Shown: piece after piece, positions 1 through 49,332 of the stretch | How the letters are laid out: each line of letters begins with the position of its first letter | How positions within the stretch are numbered: the stretch's first letter is position 1 | From: an uncultured virus (IMG/VR IMGVR_UViG_3300030329_003631) | Taxonomy: Duplodnaviria > Heunggongvirae > Uroviricota > Caudoviricetes | Virus record (IMG/VR): IMGVR_UViG_3300030329_003631 | Coordinates: 1-64,000 of that record | Strand: one strand, 5' to 3' | Length of the DNA: 64,000 bases | Notes under the pieces: generated by a model | What the model was told of the DNA's origin: nothing | The model's database searches: none | What the model saw: only the letters and a program-made list of their open reading frames with translations | Position numbers and translations under genes: made by a program

Positions 1-75
1 TTGTGCAACGCAACGCATACCATTATTTCAATGAACTATGTTCAAATATAGGTATTTATAGCCGATTATACGCAT

Positions 76-83
76 TATCTTTG
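76..83 (+). promoter_or_regulatory. Bacteroidota -7 promoter box (TATCTTTG)
   Basis: Matches TAnnTTTG followed by C; no ORF directly downstream. Confidence 0.35.
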
Positions 84-202
84 CTTAATATACCCCTACT
101 TATTAACACTTTTTTGTTGATTGCATATTGTCGCCCAGAGTAAAAAAGTCGTTTTCCCAATACCGAGTGCGAGGGGGTGGGTTGGTGAGGCACATACCCA
201 CG

Positions 203-331
203 CTAAGCAAATTTTGATCACTAAGCCCCTGGGGGCTTATATACTTAGTACTTAGTATATGCTATATACTTAGTACTTAGTACCTGTTACTTAGTACTAA
301 GTACTGGGCTCTTGGTTTTCTTAGTACTTAG
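203..331. repeat. CTTAG/CTAAG iteron-like repeat cluster
   Basis: Exact 20-bp direct repeat TATATACTTAGTACTTAGTA at 238-257 and 263-282; perfect 16-bp palindrome TACTTAGTACTAAGTA at 288-303; CTTAGTACTTAG at 320-331; hairpin TAAGCCCC-TG-GGGGCTTA at 222-239; non-coding region. Confidence 0.85.
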
Positions 332-385
332 GACTATCCTCATTTTTTATCATTTATATAAGTTTTTAGGTTAATGTAAGATCTT

Positions 386-421
386 AGAAAAGAAAAACTC
401 CCCGCTTAAGATACGGGGAGT
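386..421 (-). terminator. Intrinsic terminator, minus strand
   Basis: Stem ACTCCCCG/CGGGGAGT (397-421) with an A-rich run on its left, giving a U-tail on the minus strand. Confidence 0.65.
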
Positions 422-469
422 CAGCTAGTTTGATACTAGCTAGGGAGAGATAAAGGTAGGAAACAGCTG

Positions 470-519: not shown

Positions 520-527
520 TATTTTTG
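520..527 (+). promoter_or_regulatory. Bacteroidota -7 promoter box (TATTTTTG)
   Basis: TAnnTTTG(C) 18 nt upstream of the ORF at 546. Confidence 0.55.
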
Positions 528-545
528 CCTAAAAATATATGAAAT

Positions 546-764
546 ATGGGGTGTAATTGTAATGAAAAACAAAAGAATATGGAAAAACCTAAAGATAAAA
601 CTCTTTTAGCCCCTAAGGTTATAGCAGAATCAAGGTTAACTATATGTAAACTGAATAGATGTGGAAAATATAGAAAATCTTTAGCTATGTGTAAGGAATG
701 TGGGTGCTTTTTAAAATTGAAGACTTATATCACTTCACAAAAATGTCCCTTAGGACATTGGTAG
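546..764 (+). CDS. Small Cys-rich, probably Zn-binding phage protein (DUF6171-like)
   Basis: R-x3-C-x4-C ... CKECGC-x5-K ... CPLGHW pattern. Confidence 0.65.
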   Translation: MGCNCNEKQKNMEKPKDKTLLAPKVIAESRLTICKLNRCGKYRKSLAMCKECGCFLKLKTYITSQKCPLGHW

Positions 765-779
765 TTTAATTATTTTTAC

Positions 780-787
780 TATATTTG
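780..787 (+). promoter_or_regulatory. Bacteroidota -7 promoter box (TATATTTG)
   Basis: TAnnTTTG(C) in the intergenic space upstream of the YAHN gene cluster. Confidence 0.65.
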
Positions 788-812
788 CAACAAGCTGATA
801 AATATAATTATA

Positions 813-1286
813 ATGTATAGAGCACATAAAGAGAAATTTACTTGGAATAAAAGAACAACAAAGAGATCTTTGTATGCTCATAACCCACAAACTGATGTGA
901 TATTACCTAATGACCCTCCTGGACCTGGAAAAGGAAAAACTGGACATGACATAGTAACTAAATATGGTCTTCAACCAGAAGGTGATAAGGGAGGGGCTAA
1001 GGGCGCATCTTTTATAATGAAAGCTTTAAAGTATTCAAGAATGATACCTGGTTTTTTAAAGAAAGGGTTAAGCCTACCATCAATGATGCTTGGATCACAT
1101 AAAGCATATGGGGCTACAATATATGATGAAGAAGGGTTCAGTAAGATTACAGGATTAAACTATGCTGGACAGAGTCGTGAAGATATAGCATCACAAAGTA
1201 TGAGTCAAGAAGAGGCGGCAAAAATAACAGAAGGTTTAACATCACATATGTATCAGTCAAAATTAGCAGAAATACAAAATAGATAA
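813..1286 (+). CDS. YAHN-leader family protein 1 (157 aa)
   Basis: KEKFTW...SLYAHNP leader; tightly packed with its neighbours. Confidence 0.75.
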   Translation: MYRAHKEKFTWNKRTTKRSLYAHNPQTDVILPNDPPGPGKGKTGHDIVTKYGLQPEGDKGGAKGASFIMKALKYSRMIPGFLKKGLSLPSMMLGSHKAYGATIYDEEGFSKITGLNYAGQSREDIASQSMSQEEAAKITEGLTSHMYQSKLAEIQNR

Positions 1287-1287
1287 T

Positions 1288-1473
1288 ATGAAAAAAATAT
1301 ATAGAAGAAAAACATATGCTCATAATCCAGAAACATATAAACTAACTGGGTTTGAAGCGCCAAAGAAGAGTTCTAAAAAATTTAGTGGCTTTTCAGGAGA
1401 AACAAGTGTTCCTTTAGGATCTCAGTCAAAAGTAGATCCTTCTGTAGATCCTTCTAAATTTTTAAATAAATAA
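1288..1473 (+). CDS. YAHN-leader family protein 2 (61 aa)
   Basis: MKKIYRRKTYAHNP; C-terminal VDPS repeat. Confidence 0.7.
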   Translation: MKKIYRRKTYAHNPETYKLTGFEAPKKSSKKFSGFSGETSVPLGSQSKVDPSVDPSKFLNK

Positions 1474-1479
1474 ATAAAA

Positions 1480-1677
1480 ATGGAAAAATTTAACTGGAGT
1501 AAATCATCAAAAGAATCGCCTAATACGTCTAAGACAGGTAGAATTACTTACGCTCACAATCCAGCTGTAGCGGCTGCTATATTGCCATGGCTAGGTAAAG
1601 TGGCAGGAAAAGCATTAATTGGTGCAGGGATAAGTAAAGCAATGTCAGCTATATCGGGTGATGAGAAGTCAAAATAA
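1480..1677 (+). CDS. YAHN-leader family protein 3 (65 aa), amphipathic Gly/Ala core
   Basis: MEKFNW...ITYAHNP followed by AVAAAILPWLGKVAGKALIGAGISKAMS. Confidence 0.75.
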   Translation: MEKFNWSKSSKESPNTSKTGRITYAHNPAVAAAILPWLGKVAGKALIGAGISKAMSAISGDEKSK

Positions 1678-1935
1678 ATGAAAGAAAAATTTACATGGGG
1701 TAAAAAATTAGCTAAATCAAGAATGGTTTATGCGCATAATCCTGCTACAACAGCAGCAGCATCAACTGGACAATTTACAGCAGCTATGAAAGCAGCTATG
1801 TTTAACCCTTGGGTAATAGGAGGTAGTGTATTGTTACATTCAAAAATGAGAGGATGGAAAAACGAAATGCAAGACGATATAGGAACAGTTACATATAGAT
1901 CTCAAAGTGGTTTACCAGGAACAAGTAGAGGATAA
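1678..1935 (+). CDS. YAHN-leader family protein 4 (85 aa)
   Basis: MKEKFTWGKK...MVYAHNP followed by an Ala-rich/hydrophobic segment. Confidence 0.75.
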   Translation: MKEKFTWGKKLAKSRMVYAHNPATTAAASTGQFTAAMKAAMFNPWVIGGSVLLHSKMRGWKNEMQDDIGTVTYRSQSGLPGTSRG

Positions 1936-1985
1936 AAAATAAAGTATAAAGAAAAATAAATTATAAATAATAAAAATAAAAAATT

Positions 1986-2321
1986 ATGCCCTTAACAAAA
2001 TCATATAAAATGCCAAGCGTCAGAGGTGTATCTCCTATGAGTAGAGGAGACGAATTCGTTTGGTTAAATAATGGAGCAGGACCTATAATCAAAGGTTCCG
2101 AACCGTCATTAACTCCTAATTTTCATGATGGAGATAATCCCCCAAGTAATAGTCACCAGAATATAGCAAGCTCTAATAGAGTAAGCGGAGGACAAGATCC
2201 TAGCCAATCATTTAGAAAAGGAAAAGGAGTGTATGCTCATAATAGTCTTTTAACTCTTGGACTTGCTGGTGCTGCATTAGGAGCAGGACTGGGTGCTGGT
2301 AAAAGATTAACAGGAGGTTAG
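1986..2321 (+). CDS. YAHN family protein 5 (111 aa), motif near the C-terminus
   Basis: FRKGKGVYAHNS followed by the glycine-zipper-like LLTLGLAGAALGAGLGAG. Confidence 0.7.
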   Translation: MPLTKSYKMPSVRGVSPMSRGDEFVWLNNGAGPIIKGSEPSLTPNFHDGDNPPSNSHQNIASSNRVSGGQDPSQSFRKGKGVYAHNSLLTLGLAGAALGAGLGAGKRLTGG

Positions 2322-2322
2322 G

Positions 2323-3315
2323 ATGGCTTATAGATACAGACCATATACATCTGGGTATATCAGCGGAGGAGGCTTCGGTGGTAGAAGAGGAGGTATCGGA
2401 AGATATCGAAGAAGTGGACTATCTAGAACTCTTTCTACTGTTGGAGGTATAGCTGCAGCAGGATTAACAGCTTATGCGCTTTTTAAAGGAGCTAAAGCTA
2501 TATCTAAATGGATAAAAACTAAAAAAGCAGATAGATCTAGAGCTGAGGATTATTTATCTAAATTCCCTGGAATAGAGAATAATAGATTAAATAGAAAAAT
2601 AGCAATAGCTAGATTAGATAATGATCAGGAAGCTAATTTAGAATTAAGCGCTAAAGCAGCAAGTAGAAGTCAAAGAAATAAAGAGCGTAAAGCAAAATGG
2701 GACGCTTTTAAAGATGATTTTAAAAACCTTGCTCAAGAAATAGTAAATACACCAGGCAATATACTTAATATACCAGCAGATCTAAGAAAGAAAAAAGCGG
2801 CAAAAGAAGAGGCTAATTATCAAAAATGGATGGATGAAAAAAATGAGCAAGCTAGGATAAATGCTGAATTAGAGAGCGGAGATATAATAGAAGAACCAGA
2901 AGTTGATGATCCAGAACCAGAAGTTGATGCTTGGAGAAAGAAAAAAGGAATTGGACCAGAAGGAGCTTTTTCAAGTACGAAAGAATGGGTTGACGCTTGG
3001 AATGTGGCAAAAGAAGCAAAATGGCAGAAAAAACAATCTGAATTAGAACAGCATTCTGATCCTTCAATTAGATTGAAAAAAATAACTGGAGATCCTTCTA
3101 TGAATATAAGTTTAGATAAATCACAGATTAAGTTAAATAAGAAAATTCAAAGCAGACAAAACTTAAAAGATGTAGAAAAATTTAATTTAGGTATATCGAC
3201 TAAGTTAAGTAGGGGCGAGATAACTAAAACTCAAGCTGATAGTCTATACAAGCCTTACCCATCTTCAGGTATTGATTGGGGCGTAAGTACTGAAGAATTT
3301 TTGAATCCAAAATAA
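2323..3315 (+). CDS. Hypothetical protein with RGG-rich N-terminus, hydrophobic helix and charged coiled coil
   Basis: 330-aa ORF; GGFGGRRGGIGRYRR, then TVGGIAAAGLTAYALF. Confidence 0.7.
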   Translation: MAYRYRPYTSGYISGGGFGGRRGGIGRYRRSGLSRTLSTVGGIAAAGLTAYALFKGAKAISKWIKTKKADRSRAEDYLSKFPGIENNRLNRKIAIARLDNDQEANLELSAKAASRSQRNKERKAKWDAFKDDFKNLAQEIVNTPGNILNIPADLRKKKAAKEEANYQKWMDEKNEQARINAELESGDIIEEPEVDDPEPEVDAWRKKKGIGPEGAFSSTKEWVDAWNVAKEAKWQKKQSELEQHSDPSIRLKKITGDPSMNISLDKSQIKLNKKIQSRQNLKDVEKFNLGISTKLSRGEITKTQADSLYKPYPSSGIDWGVSTEEFLNPK

Positions 3316-3316
3316 A

Positions 3317-3580
3317 ATGGCTAAGAGAGATTATAAAGCGGAGTATAGAGATCATCAATCTTCTCCAGCTCAAATAAAAGCTAGATCTAACAGAAACAAA
3401 GCTGCAAGAAAAAAGAAATGCGGACCTGGATATGAGGTACATCATAAAGATGGTAACCCTAATAATAATGCTTGGTCTAATTTAACTTGTTCTAAAAAAA
3501 GCAAGAATAGAGGAAGGAAAGAGGCTTCTAGAAGAAAAGGGTCTAAAAGAAAAGCCTACTCTTCTTGGTCTAAAATGTAA
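3317..3580 (+). CDS. HNH endonuclease-family protein
   Basis: RDYKAEY...EVHHKDGNPNNNAWSNL...NRGR; abuts terL. Confidence 0.8.
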   Translation: MAKRDYKAEYRDHQSSPAQIKARSNRNKAARKKKCGPGYEVHHKDGNPNNNAWSNLTCSKKSKNRGRKEASRRKGSKRKAYSSWSKM

Positions 3581-5818
3581 ATGGCTGTATATAAAAATCA
3601 AATATTAGATAAAAGACTGGAGTTCTTATATAAGCTCCATTCTGATGGTATAGAGCTAGATAAAGATTATCTAGTATTATTAAAAAAACACGATTATATA
3701 AAAGACGATTCTATTCCTGTTCATTCCAAGCAGGATTTTTCAGTTAATAAGTATGAGAGAAATTATGAGGTAAAAATAGATGTAGAGCAAGAAGCAGATA
3801 AGTATGTAGAAGTTGTTGACGAAAAAGAAGATGTTGTATATTATGGAAAGGAAGAAATAAAGGTATCTGATTGGAAACCCTCCACTAAAAAACTATTAGA
3901 TCCTCCAGCTGATTTTGTAAAATGGATTGACTCTATAAATGTTTCTTTTGCTCAAAAAGTAAACTACACTCCTTATAATAAATATGTACAGCAAGCAGAG
4001 AATTGGTTAGCTCAGAATGAGAGTTTATCAGACTATAAGACTTATGATGAACAATTAGAGTTTGCAAGAAGAGAAAAGAAAAGATGTACAGATAACTCTT
4101 TATATTTCTTAAATAAGTATTTAATGCTTAAAGAAGGAGATACAGAATCTGGATATAAAAATTATAAAGCTTGGGAATGTCAAACTATAGTTTGTTTTGT
4201 ATTTGATTGCGGATATAATATTATGATTGGGAAACCTAGACAGGTTGGATTCACATCAACCATTGGAGGTTTAGCCGTAAAAAGAACTGTATTCCATAAA
4301 TCTTATTTCACTAAATTTATAACAGAAACATTAAAAAAAGGAGAAGAGATATTTGAAGATAAGATTAAATTCGCATTTTATACATTACCTGACTGGTTAA
4401 GACCTACAGTAAATAACGATAGAGAAAATCTACTTAGACTATTCTATAAACCTGCTAAAGGAGATATAGGAGGTGTTGATTCTAAATTAATGGTTGACAC
4501 TCCTAGAGTTACAGCAATTAATGGGGGTGCTCCTAACTTAGTTATGATTGATGAGATTGGATTAATATCTATTCTTACGGAGATGATGAATGAAGGTAGA
4601 CCAGCTCTTTTCTGGGTTAATCCAGATACAAATGAAATGGAGATGAAACGTCAACTTATATGTTGGGGAACAGGAGGAGAAATGGAAGGAGGAGGTCTTG
4701 CTTTTGAAAGAGAGTTTAAAACTGCTAGCGCTGAATGGAAACAGCGTAATTTTAAATATGGTATTATTCCTTTATTTTTTGATGCATATGCAAAACCTGG
4801 AGTAACTAAAGATTTTTACGAAACAGAAAAAAAGTATTATTATAAACAACAAGGTATGGATTCTGAAAGATCTAGAATACAATTTCATCAAGCATATCCT
4901 TTAACTATGGATGATATGTTTTTAATATCTTCAGATACCATTATACCTGTAGAAAGAATAAACGAAAGATTAGACGCTATATATGCTATGCCTATAGAGC
5001 AGAAACCTCAACGAGGATATTTTGAACCTATATTTGATGAGTCTAGACCTTTTCACGAAGGAAGCGATGTTGCTTATCATATTAAAGGAGCTAAGTTTAT
5101 ACCTGTAGACGACGTAGATCCTGCAGCCACTGTAACTATATTTGAACATCCAGAAGAAGGTTGGAGGTATAGATACTTTCAGGGAACTGATCCTATATTT
5201 TCAGAGTCAGGACATTCAAAAATGGCTTCTGCTGTATGGGACTCACATCATCAAACTATAAGCGCTCATGTTAATTTTAGAGTGGAAGATTATAGATATT
5301 GCTATTTACAAACCCTATTACTTGGATTATATTATGATAAGAGTTATATATATAATTTATTAGAATATAATGTTGGTAGTGGATATATTGATTATGTAGA
5401 AAATAAAAACTATTTTAAAACATTAGTACCAGGAAGAATGATTGCTCCTCACTTAAGAACACAAGGTGGAAGTAAAATGGGTATAAGTAAAAAGGCTAAT
5501 ACAGCTAAATATATAAATTATAAGTTAAGTGAGTTATTAGAATCTTATGCTGAAAATGTATTTTGTGAAGACTTTTGGATACAATTAAAAACTTATGTAA
5601 GAAAACGTACTAAGTCTGGAATAGAGAGTTTTAAAGTTGAAAATGCTAAATATTATTATGATGATGTTATTGATGCAGTAATATATGCTTATATATGTGC
5701 ACAGTCATATGCACACTTTGAGCCATATAAAATGAATGAAAGTAGAGATAAAAAGGTTAAATATAGATATATTAGAGATAAAAACTATAATTTAAAATTA
5801 AAAAGAATAGTAGAATAG
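3581..5818 (+). CDS. terL: Terminase large subunit
   Basis: Walker A GKPRQVGFTS, Walker B LVMIDEIG, coupling motif GTG, RNase H-like nuclease residues GTDPI, LEYN and YDDVIDA. Confidence 0.92.
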   Translation: MAVYKNQILDKRLEFLYKLHSDGIELDKDYLVLLKKHDYIKDDSIPVHSKQDFSVNKYERNYEVKIDVEQEADKYVEVVDEKEDVVYYGKEEIKVSDWKPSTKKLLDPPADFVKWIDSINVSFAQKVNYTPYNKYVQQAENWLAQNESLSDYKTYDEQLEFARREKKRCTDNSLYFLNKYLMLKEGDTESGYKNYKAWECQTIVCFVFDCGYNIMIGKPRQVGFTSTIGGLAVKRTVFHKSYFTKFITETLKKGEEIFEDKIKFAFYTLPDWLRPTVNNDRENLLRLFYKPAKGDIGGVDSKLMVDTPRVTAINGGAPNLVMIDEIGLISILTEMMNEGRPALFWVNPDTNEMEMKRQLICWGTGGEMEGGGLAFEREFKTASAEWKQRNFKYGIIPLFFDAYAKPGVTKDFYETEKKYYYKQQGMDSERSRIQFHQAYPLTMDDMFLISSDTIIPVERINERLDAIYAMPIEQKPQRGYFEPIFDESRPFHEGSDVAYHIKGAKFIPVDDVDPAATVTIFEHPEEGWRYRYFQGTDPIFSESGHSKMASAVWDSHHQTISAHVNFRVEDYRYCYLQTLLLGLYYDKSYIYNLLEYNVGSGYIDYVENKNYFKTLVPGRMIAPHLRTQGGSKMGISKKANTAKYINYKLSELLESYAENVFCEDFWIQLKTYVRKRTKSGIESFKVENAKYYYDDVIDAVIYAYICAQSYAHFEPYKMNESRDKKVKYRYIRDKNYNLKLKRIVE

Positions 5819-7043: not shown

Positions 7044-7613
7044 ATGAATGATATAAAGCTGTTTGAACCCACTAACAAAGATTTGAGGATAGAGTACCCT
7101 GAGCTCATGGATATTGATGAGTTCAGGGATCTCACCCCTCGTGAGTTAAACTTCGTATGGTATTTTTCTAATAGGACTAGCCCATATTCGAAGGAAAAAA
7201 ATAATAAAAAGAAAGTAGAATTATCTATAAAAAGAGGATTTGGAGAAAATGCTACACATCAATTAAGACTTGATTATGTAGCTGGTAAGTTTCCAGAAAA
7301 GATCCGAAAAGCTGTAGATAGAATGGAAAGGTTTAACCCTTCTGCTAGAATGAAGGCTAAACAAAGTGTTGAAAAGATTTTTGATAGGTTAAGACAATTA
7401 GTGGACGTTAGTCCAGAGCAATTAAATGAAATGGATTTAGGTGAAAAATCAAATTACACAAATCTTGCTATAAAGATTTCTGAAAATTTACCAAAGATTG
7501 TTGGGCAGTTAGAGCAATCATTTGGAATTCAAATTAAAAAAGAAAGTTTCACTGGAAAGTTTGGAAACAACGGACCTAGTTTAATGGATATCCTTCATAT
7601 GGAGGATGAATAA
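7044..7613 (+). CDS. crAss-like conserved terminase-region protein (possible TerS)
   Basis: ELNFVWYFSNRTSPY...KAVDRMERFNPS...LPKIVGQLEQ recalls the conserved helical protein encoded beside terL in crAss-like phages (from memory, not searched). Confidence 0.45.
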   Translation: MNDIKLFEPTNKDLRIEYPELMDIDEFRDLTPRELNFVWYFSNRTSPYSKEKNNKKKVELSIKRGFGENATHQLRLDYVAGKFPEKIRKAVDRMERFNPSARMKAKQSVEKIFDRLRQLVDVSPEQLNEMDLGEKSNYTNLAIKISENLPKIVGQLEQSFGIQIKKESFTGKFGNNGPSLMDILHMEDE

Positions 7614-13200: not shown

Positions 13201-14108
13201 TGCCTATAAATTCAAACGTCATAATAAACAGAATGCGTCAAGTAGGACTAGATGCAGAGAATGCTACCTACTACGATGATAATATTGACCTGATACCAGC
13301 TATCAATGCTTCAATTGAATGGTTGGTATCGGTCATTAATTCTGTGTATGGATCTAATAAGTTCTCAGAAGAGTTTTTTAGAGAGCTAACAAATAGTGCT
13401 GTATTTCAGACAAATACATACTCTAGAATAGAGTTTGGGAATCAACCAAACTTTACTGATGAAGTATGGTCTATATTGGCTGTATATCCTAAACCAGATG
13501 TTCATGTAAGTAGTATTCCTACAACAATAGATAACGCTTCAACAGGATATACTAGTGCTTATAATACAGGAATAAGTAATAATACAACTGGACTTATAAC
13601 ATCAGGAACATCACTAGAAGCAGCTAATGATCACGCTGGTAATGCTCTTTCTGATTGGGATTCTGTTTATAGAGGAGAATTAACTCATATAGATTCAGAT
13701 TATGATTGTAAAAGATTAACAATAGAAGAATGGGTAAGTACTAAAAGAAATCCTTTTTCAGCAGGAAATGAAGCAGAGACAAATCATGTTGAATATGCTT
13801 ATATAGCTCATATTGATCATTCTCCTTTTAAAAGCTTATCATTACCTTCTTTAACTACTGGAGTATATGATACAATTAGAGAAATAGAAATTAGACCTGT
13901 TCTAGCTAAAGAGTTAGCTACAATTTTCTATGTAAAAAGACCTAATTTAATTACTGGAGCTGGAGATAATATAGAATTTCCAGAATCTGTAACTAATTTA
14001 ATTTATGAAAAGGCATTACAATTCGTTTCATTTAAGCAGGGTGATAATACAAATATATATTCAGTTACTGGACAAGACATACAAATTTTAACTAGCGCTA
14101 TAACATAA
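13200..14108 (+). CDS. Head-tail adaptor/tail ring protein
   Basis: FYVKRP...IEFPE..NLIYEKAL C-terminal pattern of P22 gp4-like/crAss ring proteins; position in the module. Confidence 0.55.
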   Translation: MPINSNVIINRMRQVGLDAENATYYDDNIDLIPAINASIEWLVSVINSVYGSNKFSEEFFRELTNSAVFQTNTYSRIEFGNQPNFTDEVWSILAVYPKPDVHVSSIPTTIDNASTGYTSAYNTGISNNTTGLITSGTSLEAANDHAGNALSDWDSVYRGELTHIDSDYDCKRLTIEEWVSTKRNPFSAGNEAETNHVEYAYIAHIDHSPFKSLSLPSLTTGVYDTIREIEIRPVLAKELATIFYVKRPNLITGAGDNIEFPESVTNLIYEKALQFVSFKQGDNTNIYSVTGQDIQILTSAIT

Positions 14109-14902
14109 TGACATACAGATATTTAGCATATGATATTTTAGAGTCTTTTAAACAGACTTTTGACGATAAAGAAATTGGTCTTAATCATGTATTGTTTTGG
14201 ATAGAGACTATTGCTAATAGAATGGCTTCTAAAACTTTAATAAAAACTCAAGGAAGATGGAATGTAACAGGTAACTATTTAAATGTATTTTCAGCAGTAG
14301 CTGTAAATTTAGATGATACTACAGGAAGAAAGTTTTCTACATTACCTGAATTTATATTTGATTTAGATAATGAAAACGCAATTCAATATATAACTTATGA
14401 ACCACCTATACAGGCAGATTGTGATAAACATAATTATACTAAAGTTAGTTTTCTTCCTACAACTCCTGCAAAATCAAGAAGGTTATATTATAACTGCTAT
14501 GAAAAACCTTCAGCTAAAAATCCTTATTTTTATAGAAGAGGAAATAGATTATATTATTTAGGAATAGATAATGTAGATATAAGTACAGTAGAAATGGGAT
14601 TATATACAGCATTAGACCCTACTAATGTAACTAGTTTAGATGCAGACATTCCTTTACCTCCAGAAAAAATTCAAATACTAAGATACGAAGTATTAAATCT
14701 CGGAAAATTAGTTTTAATGGTTCCTCAAGATAGAGTGAACGAAGGTAATGATGCTACATCTACAGGTCAAAAACCTAAAGCATTACCAGACTCTCAACCT
14801 TATGGAGGAGCTCAAGCAGATGATGATATGGCCTCTGTTGCTACTACGACAGACTTACAGAAAGCTATGAGAAGCGCAGCTGTATCAGGTAAAACAAAAT
14901 AA
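14108..14902 (+). CDS. Tail ring protein
   Basis: PYFYRRGNRLY, DIPLPPE, PQDRVNEGND resemble crAss ring proteins. Confidence 0.55.
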   Translation: MTYRYLAYDILESFKQTFDDKEIGLNHVLFWIETIANRMASKTLIKTQGRWNVTGNYLNVFSAVAVNLDDTTGRKFSTLPEFIFDLDNENAIQYITYEPPIQADCDKHNYTKVSFLPTTPAKSRRLYYNCYEKPSAKNPYFYRRGNRLYYLGIDNVDISTVEMGLYTALDPTNVTSLDADIPLPPEKIQILRYEVLNLGKLVLMVPQDRVNEGNDATSTGQKPKALPDSQPYGGAQADDDMASVATTTDLQKAMRSAAVSGKTK

Positions 14903-24081: not shown

Positions 24082-27000
24082 ATGGCTAAAACTCAAGAAG
24101 AATTAGAAGAAGAGAAAAGAAAGAAGGAAGAGGAGTTAGGTATTTCTCTTCCTGATTTAGATTTTGGGGGCGACTCTAAAGATACTGTAGGTCTTCCTGA
24201 TTTAGATTTTGGAGGGGAGGTTGATGAGCCTATCGATTTATCTTTACCAGATTTAGATTTCGGAGGTCAGGCAGATGATATAGTGGTTGATCAAGATCAA
24301 GGTCCTGAAGTAGACGAATATGTTTCTTCTGAAATAACTGACGAAGAAGTTCTTGAAGAAATTTCAAAATACCAAACAATACAAGATTTTGAATCAGCTA
24401 TACAAAGAGGAGAAGTATCCGATAATGCTTATAAATGGTATGCAGGACAATCAGACGATCCAATTCCTTTTGGAGCAGGAACAGGGAATTTAGATATTGA
24501 AACACAGAATTTAGATTTATCACAAAACAGAAAAAGATTCTATTCTATATATGGCTTTGGGGCTGATTATAATGAGGTATTTTTTGATAATTTTGGGATG
24601 TCTCCAGAAGACGCTGAAATAAACGAGGCAGACGCTGTAAACTTATTAATAGATATGGCTATGAATACAGCGCCAGAACCTAAAGGAATGTATCCTGCTA
24701 GCGAATATGAGATGGGTTTAAATGAGATGAAACTAGCCTGGGAAACTCCTTATGAAACACCCTTAGAAGATAAAGCCTTATTCAAACCTTATATAGATAA
24801 TAAATCTTATGGAGTAAATGACCTTAGTAGATTTAGCGAAGGAAAAGATCAAGATTTTTTAAATATTACAACTTTAAATCCAAAATTTCAAGAGTTTAAA
24901 GATGATGGAAATAATCTTAGTTTTAATCCATTATATACAGGTAGATGGTCTATAGATGGAAGTGATCCTAATAAACTTCCTACTGAAAAGAATTGGCAAG
25001 ATATGTATAAGATATTTAAAGAGGATGATTATGTAGATCAAATGACAACAGCTACACTTAAGCGTTTTCCTAAATTAGATGAAGATGAAGTAAAGGCTTA
25101 TTTTCAAAATGAATCAAAAGTAGCTAGACAACAAGCTACAAATAATCTTATTAATCATAAGATAAGACAAATATTCGATGAAGAGAGAAGTTTAGCTAAA
25201 AAACGTGGAACAGGTCTTCCTACAAATATAGAGGATATTGTTTATAAAAAATTAAAACATAGAACAATGTCAAATCTTTTAGGTCCAGAAGGTATTGTAA
25301 AGGATAAGATAAAAGGCATTTATAACATGCAAGAAGGTATGGGTGGAAAGTTTTATAATAAAATTATAAATCTTATAAATATGGAACTTGATGGAGCTTC
25401 CCCTGCACAGCTTCAGGCAGAAGCAGATCTAATTAAAGAAGCTCATCCAAACTGGAAAACACTTTTTAAATATAGTGATGGAATGTTAGTAAATCCTGGT
25501 AAAGCCCAAGGAGGACCTCCTCCTGAGTTTCAAGGAGAGATTCAAGAATTTCTAGACCGTTATAAAAATTCTTCTAAAGAATTAATATTTGCAGAATTAG
25601 CTTCGTTAACTGCTTATGCAGAAAATCTTAATAATTTATTACAATCAGATGCTTCTTGGGTTAATAAAAGATCTGGGAAAGTAATGGATCGTAAATTCGC
25701 TCAATTAATCGATACTTATATCGAACATCCTGATTCTGAATTTATGGGCAGAGTTAATAGATTAGGTATGTCTGCAAAGAGAGAATATGATTTAACATTA
25801 GCAAAAATAACAGCATTAACTCGTATGTCTTTATTTAATGAAGATATATTAACCTCTCAAAAGAAAGACGGTATGCATTATGTAAGCACAATAGGAGGAT
25901 CGCTTGTTGAAGGATTGGCTTGGGGACCTGGTAAAAGAATGATTAAGGAACAAATGGAATTAGACGCACCTAGATATATGTTAGGTAGACATATAGATAT
26001 ATATAACGATTTAGGAATAACTTTAAATAAAGAACAAAAAAAGAATATAGAAGAAGTATATAGAACAAGTTTTGGAGAAAAACTTGGAATAGGAGGAGCT
26101 CATCTTCTCGGTATGTTACCTAAATTTATGTTTGGTGGAGCAATAATAGAAGGAGTTGCAGGAAGTGTTGGTCTTGCGCAATATATAAACAGTTTATATA
26201 TAAGCGGAAGTAGAGCAAAACAAGCTGGAGCATTTCTTATAGAAGCTGGAATACAGGAAGCAACTTTTGTTGCAATTATGGGTCCTGAAGCAGTTGGTGT
26301 TGGTACTACTTTTGCTGTTGGAAAAATACCGTCAAATATTATGCTTAATAATTGGATGAAAATATTTGCAAAGAATCCTAAGTTAGGAGCTGCATTACAT
26401 CCTTATGCTAAAGCTGTTGGAACTGGAGGTACTTTTGTAACGGCTACCGAACTACATACAGCAATAGTTGCTTATAAAAATTCAGATAGCTGGACAGAGA
26501 TGAAAGAAAAAATGGGATGGAATGATTTAGGAGGAAAATTTGAAGATATGGCTGTTAACTTTATATTAGGTACTACTCTTGGTTTTGCTCATACAAAATC
26601 ACATGAATATTCTATGGATGCCAAAAAATTGCAAGCTCTTTCTGCTGAGTTCATAAGAATAGGTGATGTTAAAATGGCAGAGCAACTTTGGATGAGATCT
26701 CAATGGGTTCAAGGGAAACCAGCTCGTAATCTTGGTGAATTGCTATCTAATTTTGAAATGAGTGCATTTGGAGATATGAGTATAAAACAATTTATGAAAA
26801 TTAATAAACTAACTCTTCACGCAAAAGGAGCTGACGGAAAGGTAAGACAAATAACTCCAGAAGAATTATATTCAACACTTGGCCTTGAGCAGGTATATTT
26901 TAAAACTCTAACAGGACAAAGTAGGTTTCAAGGGGAACTTGTTCGAGATCCATCTGGAAGAGGTTTTACACATGTAGATAACAAAGGGATGACTAATACT

Positions 27001-30000
27001 TTTTCATATGCTCATGAATTAAGAGCATGGCTGCAGGCTAATAAAGGTGTAAAGCTTTATGGAAGAAAAAGAAAAGATGGAGCGATAGAAGAAATAACTC
27101 CAGAAGAAGTATTCTCAAAAAAACCTATTCAAGATATACAAATTCGACTTGATGATAAAGGAGTTCTGATTCAGAAGGGGTCAGCTCACTTTAGGCTTAA
27201 CGGAAAAGAAGTGGATATTTCAAAATTACAAAAATTTCCAGATTTTGGTAAAATGCTTAATAAAAAGGAACGAATCGAAATGGAGCAAAAACTAAGGGAA
27301 ACAATTTTAGGAGAATCATTACGTAAACCTAAAACCAAACCAGGATCTGAAGGAGTTACTCCAGGGCAAAAAGCATTAACAACTTCTGTTTCAGCTGAAC
27401 CCCCTTCAAAAACAATAAAACCCAAATATATAGTTTTACCTCCAACTCCCTCTGTAACACCTGTTAAAACTGGCCCTGTAAGAGCTGGACTACCTGCACC
27501 TAAATCAACAGAACCTATACCAATCTCTCAAACCGCAGAACAAGTCCAGTCTAATGTAAATCAATATACTAGCTTACATCAACCTGTTAGTTCTAAAAAC
27601 ATTAAATCAACACCTACAGATTCTCAAACTATTAAAAATAAACTTTCTTCTATTAGAAAATCATCTGAAAATATTACAAAATGGGAGAAGGAAAGAAGTC
27701 AATTAACAGTTGGCTCTCCAAAAGCTCTTAAGCTTACAGCAAGAATAGATAAGGAAACAAAGTCTATAGAAAAACAACAAAAAGAAATTAGAAAACAAAG
27801 AATTAGAGACGCTAAAAAAACTGAAGTCGGTAAAAAGCTTTCTGAAATACAAGAAACAACTTCTAGTGTAAGAAATTATTTAGATAACAACAGATTGTCT
27901 CCTGTTGATAAAAGAAGATTAAAAAGTATGGGAATTGACTTTACCCAAGTAATGAAGGAAGATTTGAATATTAGAAAGATAACAGATGACTTGAATTATG
28001 ATGTAAGTAGAATTCTTAAAACAGGACAATTAGATATAGGTTCTTATCAAGTTATACTTGAAAATTTTGGAGAACTTATGTCAGGTATGACGTCTAAAGT
28101 AGATATATTTAAAGCAAAACAATTAGATATAAAACCTCCAACTGTAGAGAAAGGAATTTCAGATTATTTAAAGAAAGGTAAGATTCCTTCTTTTAAATTA
28201 GAAGACGCTAGAGTTTCTATACAAGCCTCTAAGTTATCTGATGTAAAAAAAGCTGAAATAATTCAAGAAATAGATAGAGCTATAGATCTAAGAGATAAGA
28301 GCTTAAAAGTTTTTGAAGGAAAGGAACCTAAGAAAACTATATTACTTTCAAAACCAGGAAAGTTAAAAGGAGAAAAGAAAGTAGTTATGGAAGCTACTTA
28401 TAATAAAGATACTGGTTTTTATAGGATACCTAGTCAATATAATACTAAGGACTTAGTTAATAGGTTAAAAGATATGATTACTTTAACTAAGAGTAATAAT
28501 CAACTTAAGAATATAGCAACCTTTGTATCTAGGACTATAGACTTAGATACTAAGTCTTCTGATGCTCTTAAAAAACATATAGCTAGAAAAGCTATTAATA
28601 TGATGAAGGAGAATAAGATGACTAATAGCGTTTCTATAAATCACTTTAGAGATATAACAACAAATATCCTTCCTTTAGTTTTAACTCCAAAACAAAGAGC
28701 TACTATGCCTTCAGAAATAAAAAAATGGATGGCAAATGCAATGACTTTGTATAGCAATAACCCTAGATCAAAAATACATTGGAAAAAAAGATATGATATG
28801 ATAAGTGGAAATTTAGCAAATATTGCAGCTAAGTCTCCTAGTACATTATCTCCTGCACAACTTCCAGCAATTGCTACTTGGTTTGCAAATCATGTTACTA
28901 AAACTGTTCTTAAGGATTTAAACGATAGATATAAAGAGATAACACAACCTGAGTATTTAGAAAAAACTATAAAAAATGAACTGTTAAAAAGTATAGCTAA
29001 TAATCTTCCTAAAAATCAATTTTTAGTTCCTAAATCTAAAATTAGAGAAATAAGCAAGAAATTTTCTGTTGTAAAAGATTTAATAGATAACTTAGATCAT
29101 TTAGTTGATAGAGGAGGTCTTTATTTAGAAGAAGCTACATATATAAAAGAACGTATAGCTTATTATCCAGATTTGAATATATTACAGTCTTCTTTAGATG
29201 GATTTTTTATAGGAGATACTTGGACTGAAGTAGCAAGAGATTATGCTGCTATAGACAATCCTACAACGCCTTGGGAAGCTCTTTCTTCTGCTGGTAAAAA
29301 GAGGTATTTGGATATTATCCGTCCTAAAGATGCAAAAGGAACCTTAGCATATTATAGCCCTGCAAATAAAATAATATCTGTATTGACTTCTGATGTAAAA
29401 ATAGGAACTGGAAAATTAGTTGAAAGTATATTAGAGGAACTTGACCATGCTTATATGCATGGATATATGACTTCTTATAGTAATTTAGGAGAAGGAGTAG
29501 ATGCTTATTTAAAAGATCAGCTTTCTGTAAGTTATACTTCAGGACTTAGGTCAACAGATATACATGTAAAACATGGATTAGTATCTGACGCAATAAAAGA
29601 TATATTTAAGATAGACATTAAAAAACCTCATACATGGGAAAGCGTTAAGCAAGATCCAAAGGCTGAAGAAACGAGAATCATAAACGAATTTAGTATAGAA
29701 GATGTTGAAATAATAGATAACACTCTTGCTGAACTACATTCTAAAGACTATAAAAAAGATATAAGTGTATTTCAGTTAATAGCACCAAAGACTAGCAAGT
29801 CATGGTTTAAACCTATTATTAGAACTATAGATGGCGAAAAGTACTTATCAACATTTAAAGACTTTGATGTTAAAATGTTTAATGCAATTTTAGCTTTATA
29901 TAATAACACTAAATATAAATACTTAGTAGAAACTCCTAGAGTAGAAGGAATGGAAGTTTTATATAAATTATCAGAGGTAAACAGAAGTGTAGCTAATCCT

Positions 30001-37946: not shown

Positions 37947-38801
37947 ATGTCAAGAGAAATAACTAGTTTCATAGATCCTGGCACAGGATCTGTTAATAAA
38001 AAATACTTTACATCTATGTTCGATCCAACGGCAGAGATAGTTAGTATTGATATAGACAGTCGTTGTGCTAATCTAGTTATAACAGATAAGTCCAATTTTG
38101 ATAAAGAATATGGGCATTATCAGCCTGCCTTTTCAAATTATAGGACTGTAGAGGTAGTAAAGCCAGACGGAACTACAGATACTTATTCCTCGATATTAGA
38201 GGCTTCTAGTAGCTATTATATACAGCCTGCTAGCTCATCTCTTACTATAAATATACCTCTTGGAGGAGTAGATGGAGCGTATGAGATTAGATTAACAAAC
38301 ATACCTACATGGAATGAGAACGAGCAATATCAAGCTTATGATTCTAATCCTGTTTTATTTGCTCAAGAAGATATAGTTGTAAATGTAGTTGGTACAGATA
38401 TTAAATTTTATAGATGTATAGAAAATCACAGTTCAGGATCTACATTTGAACCTGGAGTTGGTGGTAGCTGGCAAGATAATTGGGTAGAGATTACGGATGG
38501 AAATTATTTATTAACAGACGGCTATAGTAAATATACAGATACAGAAGTTGTATTAGTTCATTGTTCTTTAGATACTTGTATTCAGAATTTAACTAACAAA
38601 TTATTTTGCTCTAGCAATAAAATAGATTTTTGTGACAAGGAATTAATGTGTCACAATAACGAATATTTAAAATTTTTAAAACTATATTCATTAAGAGCCG
38701 CTATGGACACAATATATAGAAACAATGCAGACTCAGGTACTGTGAATGATATTATTGCAATATCTGATAGAATCTGTGAATGCGAAACATTTGATTGCTA
38801 A
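37947..38801 (+). CDS. Tail-associated protein with CBM5/12-like module and Cys-rich C-terminus
   Basis: WNENEQY..DIV..FYRCIENHSSG..FEPG..W..W; ends in ICECETFDC. Confidence 0.55.
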   Translation: MSREITSFIDPGTGSVNKKYFTSMFDPTAEIVSIDIDSRCANLVITDKSNFDKEYGHYQPAFSNYRTVEVVKPDGTTDTYSSILEASSSYYIQPASSSLTINIPLGGVDGAYEIRLTNIPTWNENEQYQAYDSNPVLFAQEDIVVNVVGTDIKFYRCIENHSSGSTFEPGVGGSWQDNWVEITDGNYLLTDGYSKYTDTEVVLVHCSLDTCIQNLTNKLFCSSNKIDFCDKELMCHNNEYLKFLKLYSLRAAMDTIYRNNADSGTVNDIIAISDRICECETFDC

Positions 38802-48943: not shown

Positions 48944-49332
48944 GTATACTAACAAAAATACTTTCCTCAGGAGCAGGAGAGTTAGTTAAAAATGTAGGTG
49001 GAGTTATAGATAACTTACACACTTCTAAAGAAGAGAAACTTGAAGCAGAAAGAAAAATAAAAGATATGATAATGGGTTATGAGGCAGAAATGCAAAAACA
49101 AGTTACAGAAAGATGGAAACTTGATATGCAGTCTGACTCATGGCTTAGTAAAAACATAAGACCTTTAGTTTTAATCTTTTTAGTGACTTCTACAGTATTG
49201 TTAATTTTTATAGATGCTGGTGTTATCCAATTTGAAGTTAAAGCTTCATGGGTAGACTTACTACAACTAGTTTTAATTACTGTAATTGGAGCATACTTTG
49301 GAGGAAGATCACTCGAAAAAGTTAAAAAGTAA
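48940..49332 (+). CDS. Holin (3TM/GTA-holin-like)
   Basis: TSKEEKL..RWKLDMQSDSWLSKNIRP..GAYFGGRSLEK. Confidence 0.8.
   Translation: MSILTKILSSGAGELVKNVGGVIDNLHTSKEEKLEAERKIKDMIMGYEAEMQKQVTERWKLDMQSDSWLSKNIRPLVLIFLVTSTVLLIFIDAGVIQFEVKASWVDLLQLVLITVIGAYFGGRSLEKVKK

What the first reader, a model, noticed from the sequence alone, without database searches (positions are those of the whole stretch)
813..2321. Five tandem small genes share a YAHN|P/S junction: a possible phage peptide-processing or targeting system
Seen: five consecutive ORFs under one TAnnTTTG promoter each contain YAHN (at nt 873, 1315, 1549, 1729, 2232), followed by P in four and S in one. The motif is preceded by a basic leader, and three leaders also share EKF(T/N)W. 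The codons differ synonymously (TATGCTCATAAC, TATGCTCATAAT, TACGCTCACAAT, TATGCGCATAAT), so the constraint is on the peptide. Sequences after the motif are unrelated. I found YAHN in no other ORF here. Known: hydrophobic-x-His-Asn is the block G terminus of inteins and Hint/BIL/pre-toxin-Hint domains, where Asn cyclisation cuts the chain; Asn-Pro is the autocleavage bond of FlhB/YscU; T4 internal proteins use a shared cleavable capsid-targeting leader. Inference: a constant-leader/variable-cargo array. Candidate mechanisms are (a) minimal Hint C-strands complemented in trans by an unseen partner, (b) a maturation-protease site, or (c) a capsid-loading tag. Pro at +1 cannot support splicing, so cleavage or binding is more likely.
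Basis: partly seen in the sequence, partly recalled or inferred. Interest (0 to 1): 0.88.

Follow-up and report, generated by a model that had tools for sequence, protein, structure and literature searches.

The report
Shared two-part tag on phage proteins
Five neighbouring small, basic proteins of an uncultured marine phage carry the same short two-part address-like tag, probably used to bind one common partner (perhaps to load them into the virus particle), but nothing yet shows that the tag is cut or what binds it.

Summary
YAHN occurs five times in all six frames of the 71-kb genome (0.26 expected), once in each of five consecutive genes. I extend it to a two-part tag: an N-terminal [ED]-x-[FW]-x-W, a 6-55-residue linker, then Y-[A/I/G]-H-N-[P/S]. 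The tag recurs in the only two close relatives found. One of them carries the first part alone on a SET-domain enzyme. Strain variants change the tag region less than the rest (2 of 199 against 15 of 200 positions).

The genes belong to a clade-specific block of eight basic proteins (pI 9.5-10.7) inserted before the terminase gene of a phage distantly like crAss-type phages. AlphaFold models them as disordered.

No Hint/intein fragment and no prohead protease is detectable, and no other protein of the phage carries the site. The split-intein idea is therefore unsupported, and cleavage remains untested.

Best reading (about 0.4): a portable linear-motif tag on fast-changing cargo proteins, working like phage T4's capsid-targeting sequence. 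It is a new variant of a known kind and of moderate interest.

The parts
520..527 (+). TAnnTTTG word 19 nt before the DUF6171 gene. Promoter-like only.
   Evidence: The word occurs 56 times on the + strand against 45.6 expected, so it is weak evidence.
546..764 (+). First gene of the clade-specific block: a Cys-rich 72-aa DUF6171 protein, pI 9.5.
   Evidence: Pfam DUF6171 E 4.8e-6 and phrog_13558 E 6.7e-13. Also heads the block in L002. Absent from 5 of 5 more distant relatives.
780..787 (+). TAnnTTTG word (TATATTTG) 33 nt before ORF1. Promoter-like only.
813..1286 (+). ORF1, 157 aa. Motif 1 EKFTW at nt 831-845, motif 2 YAHN|P at nt 873-887. Leader of 24 aa with charge +6.
   Evidence: No Pfam, PHROG, NCBIfam or PADLOC family. 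The ESM Atlas model has pLDDT 0.47.
1288..1473 (+). ORF2, 61 aa. Motif 2 YAHN|P at nt 1315-1329. No motif 1. Leader of 13 aa with charge +5.
   Evidence: A strain variant has 2 changes, both after the motif.
1480..1677 (+). ORF3, 65 aa. Motif 1 EKFNW at nt 1483-1497, motif 2 YAHN|P at nt 1549-1563, followed by an Ala/Gly-rich hydrophobic segment.
   Evidence: KD19 maximum 1.50. Aligns with the ORF5 orthologues.
1678..1935 (+). ORF4, 85 aa. Motif 1 EKFTW at nt 1684-1698, motif 2 YAHN|P at nt 1729-1743. Leader of 21 aa with charge +5.
   Evidence: AF2 pLDDT 54 with residues 1-29 as coil. A strain variant has 7 changes, all after residue 28.
2037..2321 (+). ORF5. The longest frame starts at nt 1986 (111 aa); the likely start is Met18 at nt 2037 (94 aa). 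Motif 1 DEFVW at nt 2049-2063, a long linker, motif 2 YAHN|S at nt 2232-2246, then a 19-residue uncharged Gly/Ala/Leu segment followed by KR.
   Evidence: The orthologues in L002 (YIHNP) and L108 (YGHNP) begin at the motif-1 Met. Both strain changes before Met18 fit a later start.
2323..3315 (+). ORF6, 330 aa, pI 9.6. Conserved N-terminal YTSGY...GGI.RYRR, a hydrophobic segment at residues 36-54, then a charged region. No YAHN. It always follows the ORF5-like gene.
   Evidence: Only 6 proteins of this family at E <= 0.01 among 5.8 billion clusters.
3317..3580 (+). HNH endonuclease, 87 aa, pI 10.7. Last gene of the clade-specific block.
   Evidence: Pfam HNH_3 E 7.8e-9. Present in L002 and L108.
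3581..5818 (+). Large terminase subunit. It is the anchor used to find relatives and the first gene of the conserved structural operon.
   Evidence: 275 homologues at E <= 1e-5. tblastn hits lie under features annotated as large terminase. In relatives with 49-58% identity it directly follows the divergent intergenic region.

Best explanation
The five ORFs are part of a clade-specific, fast-changing cassette array of small, basic, largely disordered proteins at the head of the late (structural) operon. The phage is an uncultured marine phage of about 71 kb that is distantly crAss-like.

The proteins share a two-part short linear motif rather than a domain. Motif 1 is an N-terminal [ED]-x-[FW]-x-W directly after the start Met. 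A linker of 6 to 55 residues follows, then motif 2, Y-[A/I/G]-H-N-[P/S].

I propose that this is a portable address tag read by one common folded partner. The most likely purpose is to bring these proteins into the procapsid or virion as cargo together with the DNA. This is the same logic as the capsid-targeting sequence of phage T4 internal proteins. Asn|Pro would be a possible, unproven, release point.

Shown here:
- the motif and its non-random occurrence;
- stronger constraint on the tag than on the rest of the protein;
- motif 1 carried on an unrelated enzyme;
- the disorder, the basic charge and the position of the genes.

Inferred, not shown:
- the existence and identity of the partner;
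- loading into the virion;
- any cleavage.
For: 1. The motif is real and acts at the peptide level. Five of five consecutive ORFs carry it, it occurs nowhere else in six frames, and its codons vary synonymously.
2. The tag is conserved where the cargo is not.
- ORF1 and ORF4 align with the 168-aa protein of L002 only over the first 24-26 residues, at 50% identity, although TerL is 82% identical.
- In the ORF5 set (G000, L002, L108, plus ORF3) M, F, W, Y, H and N are invariant.
- In five comparisons of near-identical strain variants, the leader has 2 changes in 199 positions and the remainder 15 in 200 (Fisher P 0.002). None falls in a motif residue.
3. The tag is portable. L002 carries motif 1 (MEQWNW) on a 114-aa SET-domain protein (Pfam SET E 9.2e-7, above the cut-off). 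The gene content of the array differs between G000, L002 and L108.
4. It behaves as a linear motif, not a fold. AF2 gives pLDDT 54 and 53.5, with the leader as coil. The Atlas model of ORF1 has pLDDT 0.47.
5. All eight genes from 546 to 3580 have pI 9.5-10.7. The proteome median is 6.5, and the scaffold-like protein, portal and capsid protein are acidic.
6. The genes are tightly packed on the same strand just before HNH and TerL, followed by portal, a scaffold-like gene and the capsid gene. The holin lies 46 kb away.
7. Named relatives of the portal are crAss-like and Bacteroides phages. crAss001 virions store several MDa of cargo proteins (PMC10172136, passages read).
8. [quoted passage not shown]
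Against: - No virion protein data and no RNA data exist for this phage.
- No partner is identified.
- No prohead protease family is detectable.
- The site Y.HN[PS] occurs in no other protein of the phage. This differs from T4, where by my recollection the head proteins themselves share the cut site.
- Motif 1 is missing from ORF2. Motif 2 is missing from the SET protein of L002 and from the possible ORF2 counterpart there. So neither half is obligatory.
- The linker varies from 6 to 55 residues, which is unusual for a single binding epitope.
- The whole block is absent from relatives with TerL identity of 58% or less, so it is not needed to build this kind of virion.
- Four of the eight motif-2 proteins have a moderately hydrophobic segment right after motif 2, which fits a membrane role equally well.
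- The family is known from only three lineages.
Confidence: 0.4

Rival explanations
1. These are small membrane proteins (lysis timing, superinfection exclusion or envelope remodelling). The basic N-terminus stays in the cytoplasm. Motif 2 (aromatic, His, Asn-Pro) is a juxtamembrane helix-start or interface element, or a contact site for a membrane partner such as ORF6. It is not a loading tag.
For: In ORF3, ORF5, L002_80 and L108_80, motif 2 directly abuts an Ala/Gly-rich segment with KD19 of 1.5-1.8 that ends in K/R. ORF6, which always follows the ORF5-like gene, also has such a segment at residues 36-54. The leaders are positively charged, which fits the positive-inside rule.
Against: ORF1, ORF2 and L002_168 have no hydrophobic segment after motif 2, and in ORF4 it lies 13 residues away. 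Several of the segments contain Lys. Motif 1 also sits on a soluble SET-domain enzyme. The recognisable holin lies at 48940-49332, far from this block. No holin, spanin or exclusion family matched.
Confidence: 0.2
2. This is a young paralogous family whose shared N-terminus binds a host factor in the infected cell, such as a chaperone, a protease adaptor or a nucleic-acid machine. Alternatively the shared N-terminus is only what remains of recent duplication. In either case there is no link to the virion.
For: The leaders are also alike at DNA level (84% over 25 nt between ORF1 and ORF4), as expected after duplication. The family is confined to one narrow clade: the profile search of 1.84 billion representatives found only its own members plus two repeat proteins, and it was absent from 1.6 Mb of relatives. 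Accessory blocks in front of structural operons often hold host-directed genes (established knowledge).
Against: Mere remnant status does not explain three things. Y, H and N are invariant across orthologues whose other residues have diverged to 37-38% identity. The tag region changes less than the rest among strains. Motif 1 is carried on a SET domain. A host partner cannot be tested here because the host is unknown.
Confidence: 0.2
3. The chain cuts itself at His-Asn|Pro by Asn side-chain attack. This could happen alone, after docking on a partner, or as a split Hint C-fragment. The cut would release a membrane-active or DNA-binding peptide with N-terminal Pro.
For: Asn|Pro is a proven autocleavage bond in bacterial RsgI (Asn97-Pro98) and in the reovirus mu1 / aquareovirus VP5 capsid proteins (Asn42-Pro43) (PMC10328401 and PMC9148132, passages read). 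His-Asn ends inteins (recalled). Asn and His are invariant here.
Against: All known cases need a folded domain around the bond, and the leader is modelled as coil at pLDDT about 54. Three Hint families gave nothing in six frames of the genome while the controls rang. There is no Pfam hit to any autoprocessing domain. Four of five +1 residues are Pro, so splicing is excluded. The orthologues of the Ser-bearing ORF5 have Pro.
Confidence: 0.07
4. An array of RiPP-like precursor peptides: a conserved leader recognised by a modifying enzyme and variable cores released at the YAHN|P junction.
For: A conserved leader on variable C-terminal parts in tandem genes is the layout of precursor arrays (established knowledge). 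The cores of ORF2, ORF3 and ORF5 are short, 25-48 aa.
Against: No modifying enzyme, recognition element, leader peptidase or exporter family lies in the block or elsewhere in the genome. The 'cores' of ORF1 (133 aa) and L002_168 (148 aa) are far too long. The five YAHN proteins contain no Cys (read from the translations).
Confidence: 0.03
5. The repeated word is a DNA or RNA signal, such as a partly palindromic TATGCNCATA binding site, and the peptide conservation is a by-product.
For: TATG..CATA has dyad symmetry, and in ORF4 TTATGCGCATAA is a perfect 12-nt palindrome.
Against: All five copies are in the coding frame of their ORFs, which use two different absolute frames. ORF3 uses TACGCTCACAAT, which breaks the symmetry but keeps the peptide. 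The orthologues read YIHNP and YGHNP. The word never occurs on the - strand or outside these genes.
Confidence: 0.01

Closest known systems
Capsid-targeting sequence (CTS) of phage T4 internal proteins IPI, IPII, IPIII and Alt
   Same: A short conserved N-terminal peptide heads otherwise unrelated, fast-evolving, mostly basic accessory proteins encoded in a variable gene array. The tag is portable onto other proteins (PMC3012670, passages read; here).
   Different: The T4 tag is one contiguous peptide of about 10 residues that ends at the prohead-protease site, a site also used in the head proteins (recalled). Here the tag has two parts with a linker of 6-55 residues. No prohead protease family is detectable, and no other protein has the site. 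The phage is a distant relative of crAss-like phages, not of T4. Neither loading nor cutting is shown.
Cargo proteins of crAss001 and related crassviruses
   Same: Distant portal similarity (20-23% identity), a weak hit to tail ring protein 2, and giant ORFs after the tail genes. Crassvirus particles store about 5.5 MDa of cargo proteins, some with predicted membrane helices, and these leave the particle partly unfolded (PMC10172136, passages read).
   Different: The known crassvirus cargo proteins are large (60-277 kDa). The passages I read describe no shared N-terminal tag. The proteins here are 61-168 aa and have no homology to them.
Asn|Pro autocleavage in reovirus mu1 / aquareovirus VP5 and in bacterial RsgI
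   Same: The same scissile dipeptide, Asn-Pro. In the viral cases it lies about 40 residues from the N-terminus of a particle protein and releases a small peptide used in membrane penetration (PMC9148132 and PMC10328401, passages read).
   Different: Those bonds sit inside folded domains that catalyse the cut. Here the region is modelled as disordered, and there is no sequence or family match. In mu1 and VP5 the N-terminal peptide is the active one, whereas here the N-terminal piece is the constant one.
Intein / Hint block G (hydrophobic-x-His-Asn) and split-intein C fragments
   Same: The four-residue pattern: aromatic or hydrophobic, small, His, Asn, at a junction.
   Different: No Hint N-part exists anywhere in the genome. 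The +1 residue is Pro in 4 of 5 proteins and in both orthologues of the fifth. No block F-like strand is recognisable, and the region is modelled as coil. TerL homologues of this phage group do carry ordinary inteins (P0011, P0048, P0095), but TerL of this genome has no intein family hit.
N-terminal leaders of the capsid and scaffolding proteins of Staphylococcus phage 80alpha, removed by the host protease Prp
   Same: A short shared N-terminal leader on phage proteins that is processed without a phage-encoded protease. This shows that the absence of a phage protease does not exclude cutting (PMC5744158; only the search listing and the start of the abstract were seen, the details are recalled).
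   Different: That leader copies the extension of host ribosomal protein L27 in Firmicutes, and it sits on the essential head proteins themselves. Here the essential head proteins lack the motif. The host is unknown and probably a member of the Bacteroidota.

Membership tests
T4-type capsid-targeting sequence system | The same N-terminal peptide heads otherwise unrelated proteins. | tested here: met
   only the first 24-26 residues align. After motif 2 no alignment is found, except for the Ala/Gly-rich tails of ORF3 and ORF5.
T4-type capsid-targeting sequence system | The tag ends at the cut site of the prohead protease, and that site also occurs in the head and scaffold proteins. | tested here: not met
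   [YFW]AHN occurs nowhere else in six frames, and HNP on the + strand occurs only in four of the five ORFs. The 12 other Y.HN words (2 on the + strand, 10 on the - strand) were not checked against genes, except one at nt 38702, which lies in a + frame other than that of the gene there.
T4-type capsid-targeting sequence system | A prohead maturation protease gene is present. | tested here: not met
   Peptidase_S78 and Peptidase_S77 gave no match at E <= 1 in six frames. The S78 control rang in 6 genomes; the S77 control rang only weakly, in 1 genome. No protease was found among the structural genes by Pfam or PHROGs. The one peptidase (phrog_4191) is in the early region and is also present in a relative that has no YAHN word in the 62% of its genome on record and no gene block before TerL.
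T4-type capsid-targeting sequence system | The tagged proteins are found inside the particle, with the tag removed. | not testable with these tools
   No proteome exists for this uncultured phage.
Intein / Hint (including split forms) | The N-terminal Hint blocks are present in cis or elsewhere in the genome. | tested here: not met
   PF14890, PF07591 and PF13403 gave no match at E <= 1 in six frames of the 71 kb, while the controls rang in 7, 5 and 3 genomes.
Intein / Hint (including split forms) | A nucleophile (Cys, Ser or Thr) follows the terminal Asn. | tested here: not met
   Pro in 4 of 5 proteins. The one Ser (ORF5) is Pro in both orthologues.
Asn-Pro autoprocessing domains (RsgI periplasmic domain, reovirus mu1/VP5, FlhB/YscU NPTH) | The Asn-Pro bond is held in a folded domain that strains it. 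For FlhB/YscU the full word is NPTH. | tested here: inconclusive
   Asn-Pro is present in 4 of 5 proteins, but no TH follows it. The AF2 models have low confidence, with the leader as coil, and there is no family hit. A fold induced by a partner cannot be excluded.
RiPP precursor peptide array | A modifying enzyme, leader-recognition element, leader peptidase or exporter lies nearby. | tested here: not met
   None found by Pfam, PHROGs or NCBIfam in the block or the rest of the genome.
Holin / spanin lysis cassette | Adjacent to the holin or endolysin, with a recognisable holin or spanin family or a lipobox. | tested here: not met
   The holin (phrog_3427, E 6.6e-32) lies at 48940-49332. The five ORFs match no family. 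None of the five contains Cys, so none has a lipobox.

The most novel reading that the evidence does not exclude
The two-part tag is a protease-independent loading-and-release device. Motifs 1 and 2 dock together on a procapsid protein, which folds the His-Asn|Pro junction so that it cuts itself by Asn cyclisation, as in reovirus mu1. This would leave Pro-initiated membrane-active or DNA-binding peptides, and in relatives a SET-domain enzyme, inside the particle for injection. It would be a self-processing capsid-targeting system in a phage lineage without a prohead protease.
Probability: 0.08. Interest if true: 0.85.

Novelty: new variant of a known kind. Interest (0 to 1): 0.5.

Why it matters
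If the tag loads proteins into the particle, it would mark which accessory proteins this little-known group of marine phages injects into its hosts. In a relative these include a minimal SET-domain methyltransferase. The hosts are probably Bacteroidota.

It would also show that leader-directed cargo loading is not tied to T4-type heads with a maturation protease.

A 20-residue portable tag would be a practical tool for packaging foreign proteins into such particles.

If instead the proteins act at the membrane or on a host factor, the tag still defines a compact, testable interaction motif on a family that no database describes.

Tried and rejected
- **DNA pattern scan of viral contigs.** A scan for motif 1 plus motif 2 with this genome's codon choice gave 0 matches.
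- **Single-protein TerL scan of viral contigs.** No relative was found. The alignment A1 was needed.
- **Word-indexed search with ORF4.** Only the protein itself was found, among 2 candidates.
- **Leader profile against 1.84 billion representatives.** There were 7 hits at E <= 0.001. Five are the family's own members or their near-identical cluster representatives. P0131 is a 16-fold repeat carrying CWAHNPEVRGSKP, which I read, from recollection, as a translated tRNA-gene array. P0133 is a repeat protein carrying STYAHSPS. Both were rejected as unrelated.
- **Other motif-like words in relatives, judged chance.**
  - YAHNS in one 71-aa ORF about 3 kb after TerL, seen in L024, L025 and L026, without motif 1.
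  - FTHNS in L018, L019 and L118.
  - YEHNS in L073, YAHNF in L070 and YAHNL in L074.
  - Of the two TAYGCNCAYAAY words in G002, one lies inside a 178-aa protein (YYAHNHG); I did not place the other in an ORF. I also did not examine the single word in G003.
- **ESM Atlas.** ORF1 scored 0.83 and ORF5 0.76. Both are below the level the tool calls a lead.
- **PDB sequence searches.** The peptidase and the DUF6171 protein gave nothing significant.
- **PADLOC.** There was only a weak coiled-coil-type hit of ORF6 to JetC, E 4.4e-4, which I disregarded.
- **ORF6-family scan of viral contigs.** Only L002 was found again.
- **Leader alignment scan of genome contigs.** Not possible, because no stretch was conserved enough.
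- **Sequencing runs.** No RNA holder is listed.
- **Complex prediction.** The job (scaffold-like protein plus capsid protein plus ORF4) never ran because the queue was full at every try. There is no result of any kind.
- **Literature.** A full-text search for 'YAHNP' found 2 unrelated papers, and 'DUF6171' found none. I found nothing in print on this motif in those two searches.
Full report
**Setting**

The window is the first 64,000 bases of a 71,046-base virus record. The record's two ends overlap by about 100 nt, and a near-identical metagenome contig, L085, bridges end to start. The genome is therefore closed.

Genes run rightwards from about 546 to 54.5 kb:
- a block of small genes;
- an HNH gene and the large terminase (TerL);
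- a P22-type portal, a scaffold-like acidic protein and an SU10-type capsid protein;
- tail genes, giant ORFs of 1668, 836 and 4602 aa, and a holin.

The replication genes lie on the other strand. tblastn with TerL found only two distant phage records, and the capsid protein found none. The portal's nearest named relatives are crAss-like and Bacteroides phages at 20-23% identity. A weak, sub-threshold hit to crAss tail ring protein 2 points the same way. G+C is 29-37%. The runs that hold the stretch are marine metagenomes.

**The observation**

Five consecutive + strand ORFs (813-1286, 1288-1473, 1480-1677, 1678-1935, 1986-2321) each contain YAHN at the stated positions. P follows in four and S in one. 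These are the only YAHN in a six-frame translation of the whole genome. The expectation is 0.26 (Poisson P 8.6e-6), and 0.0009 within the 479 residues of these ORFs.

The DNA word occurs only on the + strand and always in the reading frame of its ORF, although the ORFs use two absolute frames. The codons differ synonymously. ORF3's TACGCTCACAAT breaks the accidental dyad symmetry of TATGCNCATA but keeps the peptide. The constraint is therefore on the peptide.

**A second motif**

Scanning N-termini showed [ED]-x-[FW]-x-W directly after the start Met in ORF1, ORF3 and ORF4. It also appears in ORF5 if that gene starts at Met18 (nt 2037). In 911 kb of this genome plus 80 related loci, the pattern otherwise appeared only three times in unrelated contexts, apart from the three genes in L002 described below.

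The tag therefore has two parts: motif 1, a linker of 6 to 55 residues, then motif 2, Y-x-H-N-[PS]. ORF2 has motif 2 only.

**Relatives**

TerL has 275 homologues at E <= 1e-5, many on contigs of about 70 kb. With an alignment of 25 of them I fetched 80 loci from viral contigs and 80 from metagenome contigs. Only three hold the motifs.
- **L085** is the same phage: 3 differences in 7358 nt, none in the five genes.
- **L002** has TerL 82% identical. Behind the same DUF6171 gene it carries:
  - a 93-aa basic protein without the motifs;
  - a 114-aa SET-domain protein that starts MEQWNW but lacks motif 2 (Pfam SET E 9.2e-7);
  - an 80-aa orthologue of ORF5 with ENFTW and YIHNP;
  - a 168-aa protein that starts MKEQWSWNKPIRRREVYAHNP;
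  - an ORF6-like gene, HNH and TerL.
- **L108** has TerL 90% identical over the 304 residues present. It has an 80-aa ORF5 orthologue with ETFTW and YGHNP, then ORF6-like, HNH and TerL.

In the alignment of the ORF5 set, M, F, W, Y, H and N are invariant, while overall identity to ORF5 is 37-38% (22% for ORF3). ORF1 and ORF4 align with the 168-aa protein of L002 only over the leader.

The four relatives examined with TerL identity of 49-58% have TerL as the first gene after the divergent intergenic region, so the whole block is missing. Five larger relatives, four of them complete, have no DUF6171. They have only three occurrences of the DNA word. The one I examined lies mid-protein and looks like chance.

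Profile searches with the leader and with the ORF5 set, over all six frames of 164 sources (1.6 Mb), found only G000, L085, L002 and L108. The leader profile run against 1.84 billion representative proteins found only the family's own members plus two unrelated repeat proteins. ORF6 has just six relatives in 5.8 billion clusters. The family is real but confined to one narrow clade.

**Constraint within the population**

The protein collection holds near-identical variants of ORF2 to ORF5. Counting from the start Met (Met18 for ORF5) to the Asn of motif 2, there are 2 changes in 199 positions. After the motif there are 15 in 200 (Fisher P 0.002). No motif residue changes.

One caveat is that the ORF5 reference is used twice. 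The two changes upstream of Met18 fit the later start.

**What the proteins are like**
- No Pfam, PHROG, NCBIfam or PADLOC family matches any of the five.
- AF2 with the small alignments gives pLDDT 54 (ORF4, residues 1-29 as coil) and 53.5 (ORF5 set, no secondary structure).
- The Atlas model of ORF1 has pLDDT 0.47.
- All eight genes from 546 to 3580 have pI 9.5-10.7. The proteome median is 6.5 and the structural proteins are acidic.
- In ORF3, ORF5 and the two ORF5 orthologues, motif 2 abuts an Ala/Gly-rich segment of moderate hydrophobicity (KD19 1.5-1.8) that ends in K/R. In ORF1, ORF2 and the 168-aa protein of L002 it does not.

*Split Hint.* Three Hint families gave nothing in six frames at E <= 1 while the controls rang. 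The +1 residue is Pro in four, and Pro in both orthologues of the Ser-bearing fifth. The leader does not look folded. This mechanism is not supported.

*Maturation-protease site.*
- No S77 or S78 protease was found, though the S77 control was weak.
- None was found by Pfam or PHROGs among the structural genes.
- The site occurs in no other protein.
- The one phage peptidase (phrog_4191, outside the window) lies in the early region. It also occurs in G001, which has no YAHN word, although that record is only 62% complete.

A T4-style general protease is therefore unlikely. A host protease or a dedicated one cannot be excluded.

*Loading tag.* This is compatible with everything seen but tested by nothing here. 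The one complex prediction I prepared never ran.

**Most likely working**

A portable two-part linear motif on a changing set of small basic proteins, read by one common partner, most likely loads them into the head with the DNA. The logic is that of the T4 capsid-targeting sequence on its diverse internal proteins (PMC3012670, passages). It would also fit a phage group whose named relatives pack large amounts of cargo protein (PMC10172136, passages).

The steps that are shown and those that are inferred are listed under the best explanation. I put this reading at about 0.4. The rivals are:
- a membrane role, 0.2;
- a host-factor motif or a plain paralogue remnant, 0.2;
- Asn-Pro self-cleavage, 0.07. 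The bond is a proven autocleavage site in RsgI and in reovirus mu1/VP5 (PMC10328401, PMC9148132, passages), but always inside a fold;
- RiPP-like precursors, 0.03;
- a nucleic-acid signal, 0.01.

**Comparison and novelty**

It works like a T4 capsid-targeting sequence but fails two of the defining features tested: the site is not shared with the head proteins, and no prohead protease is present. I therefore do not file it as a member.

Earlier notes of this scan list many leader-tagged gene arrays in other phages. One describes a row of very basic proteins next to the packaging gene. Those notes are unchecked leads, but they suggest the general device is common.

What is particular here is the two-part tag with a variable linker, the His-Asn-Pro junction, and its occurrence in a distantly crAss-like phage lineage without a recognisable maturation protease. 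I rate it a new variant of a known kind, with interest 0.5.

Noticed in passing
L002:2302-2646 (+): A 114-aa minimal SET-domain protein (Pfam SET E 9.2e-7) that starts with motif 1 (MEQWNW) but lacks motif 2. It sits in the same gene array of the closest relative. It is a candidate tagged enzyme.
   Followed up: partly
window 238-346: A cluster of direct and inverted copies of TACTTAGTACTTAGTA in the non-coding region upstream of the block. Possibly a regulatory, origin or packaging site.
   Followed up: no
window 1-100 and G000 70947-71046: The two ends of the record overlap by about 100 nt, and contig L085 bridges end to start. The record classed as 'linear' is therefore a closed genome of about 70.9 kb.
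   Followed up: yes
window 396-422 (-): A strong terminator-like hairpin with a T run on the minus strand (10 pairs, 6 G-C), in the non-coding region before the block.
   Followed up: no
window 24082-37890 (+): A 4602-aa ORF with no Pfam or PHROG hit and no HExxH. Together with the 1668-aa and 836-aa ORFs it resembles the giant cargo proteins of crAss-like phages by position only.
   Followed up: partly
proteins P0011, P0048, P0095 (TerL homologues): Some TerL homologues of this phage group are 1073-1158 aa and carry intein and LAGLIDADG families (PF14890, PF14528). TerL of this genome has no intein family hit.
   Followed up: no
G000 65418-66653 (-), outside the window (L165:1619-2854): A 411-aa peptidase-like protein (phrog_4191 E 8.5e-50; no Pfam or PDB sequence hit) among the early genes. 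It is also present in 1 of 5 relatives searched.
   Followed up: partly
window 14108-14902 (+): A weak hit to crAss tail ring protein 2 (PF25702, E 4.2e-4, below the cut-off). It is in line with the portal's distant similarity to crAss-like phages.
   Followed up: no
window 7044-7613 (+): A 189-aa protein between a 377-aa acidic protein and the portal. Its stretch LTPRELNFVWYF reminds me of small terminase subunits (recalled, not tested). No family hit.
   Followed up: no
L024:10114, L025:10338, L026:10338 (+): A 71-aa ORF about 3 kb after TerL in three similar records contains YAHNS without motif 1. I judged it chance but did not examine it further.
   Followed up: no
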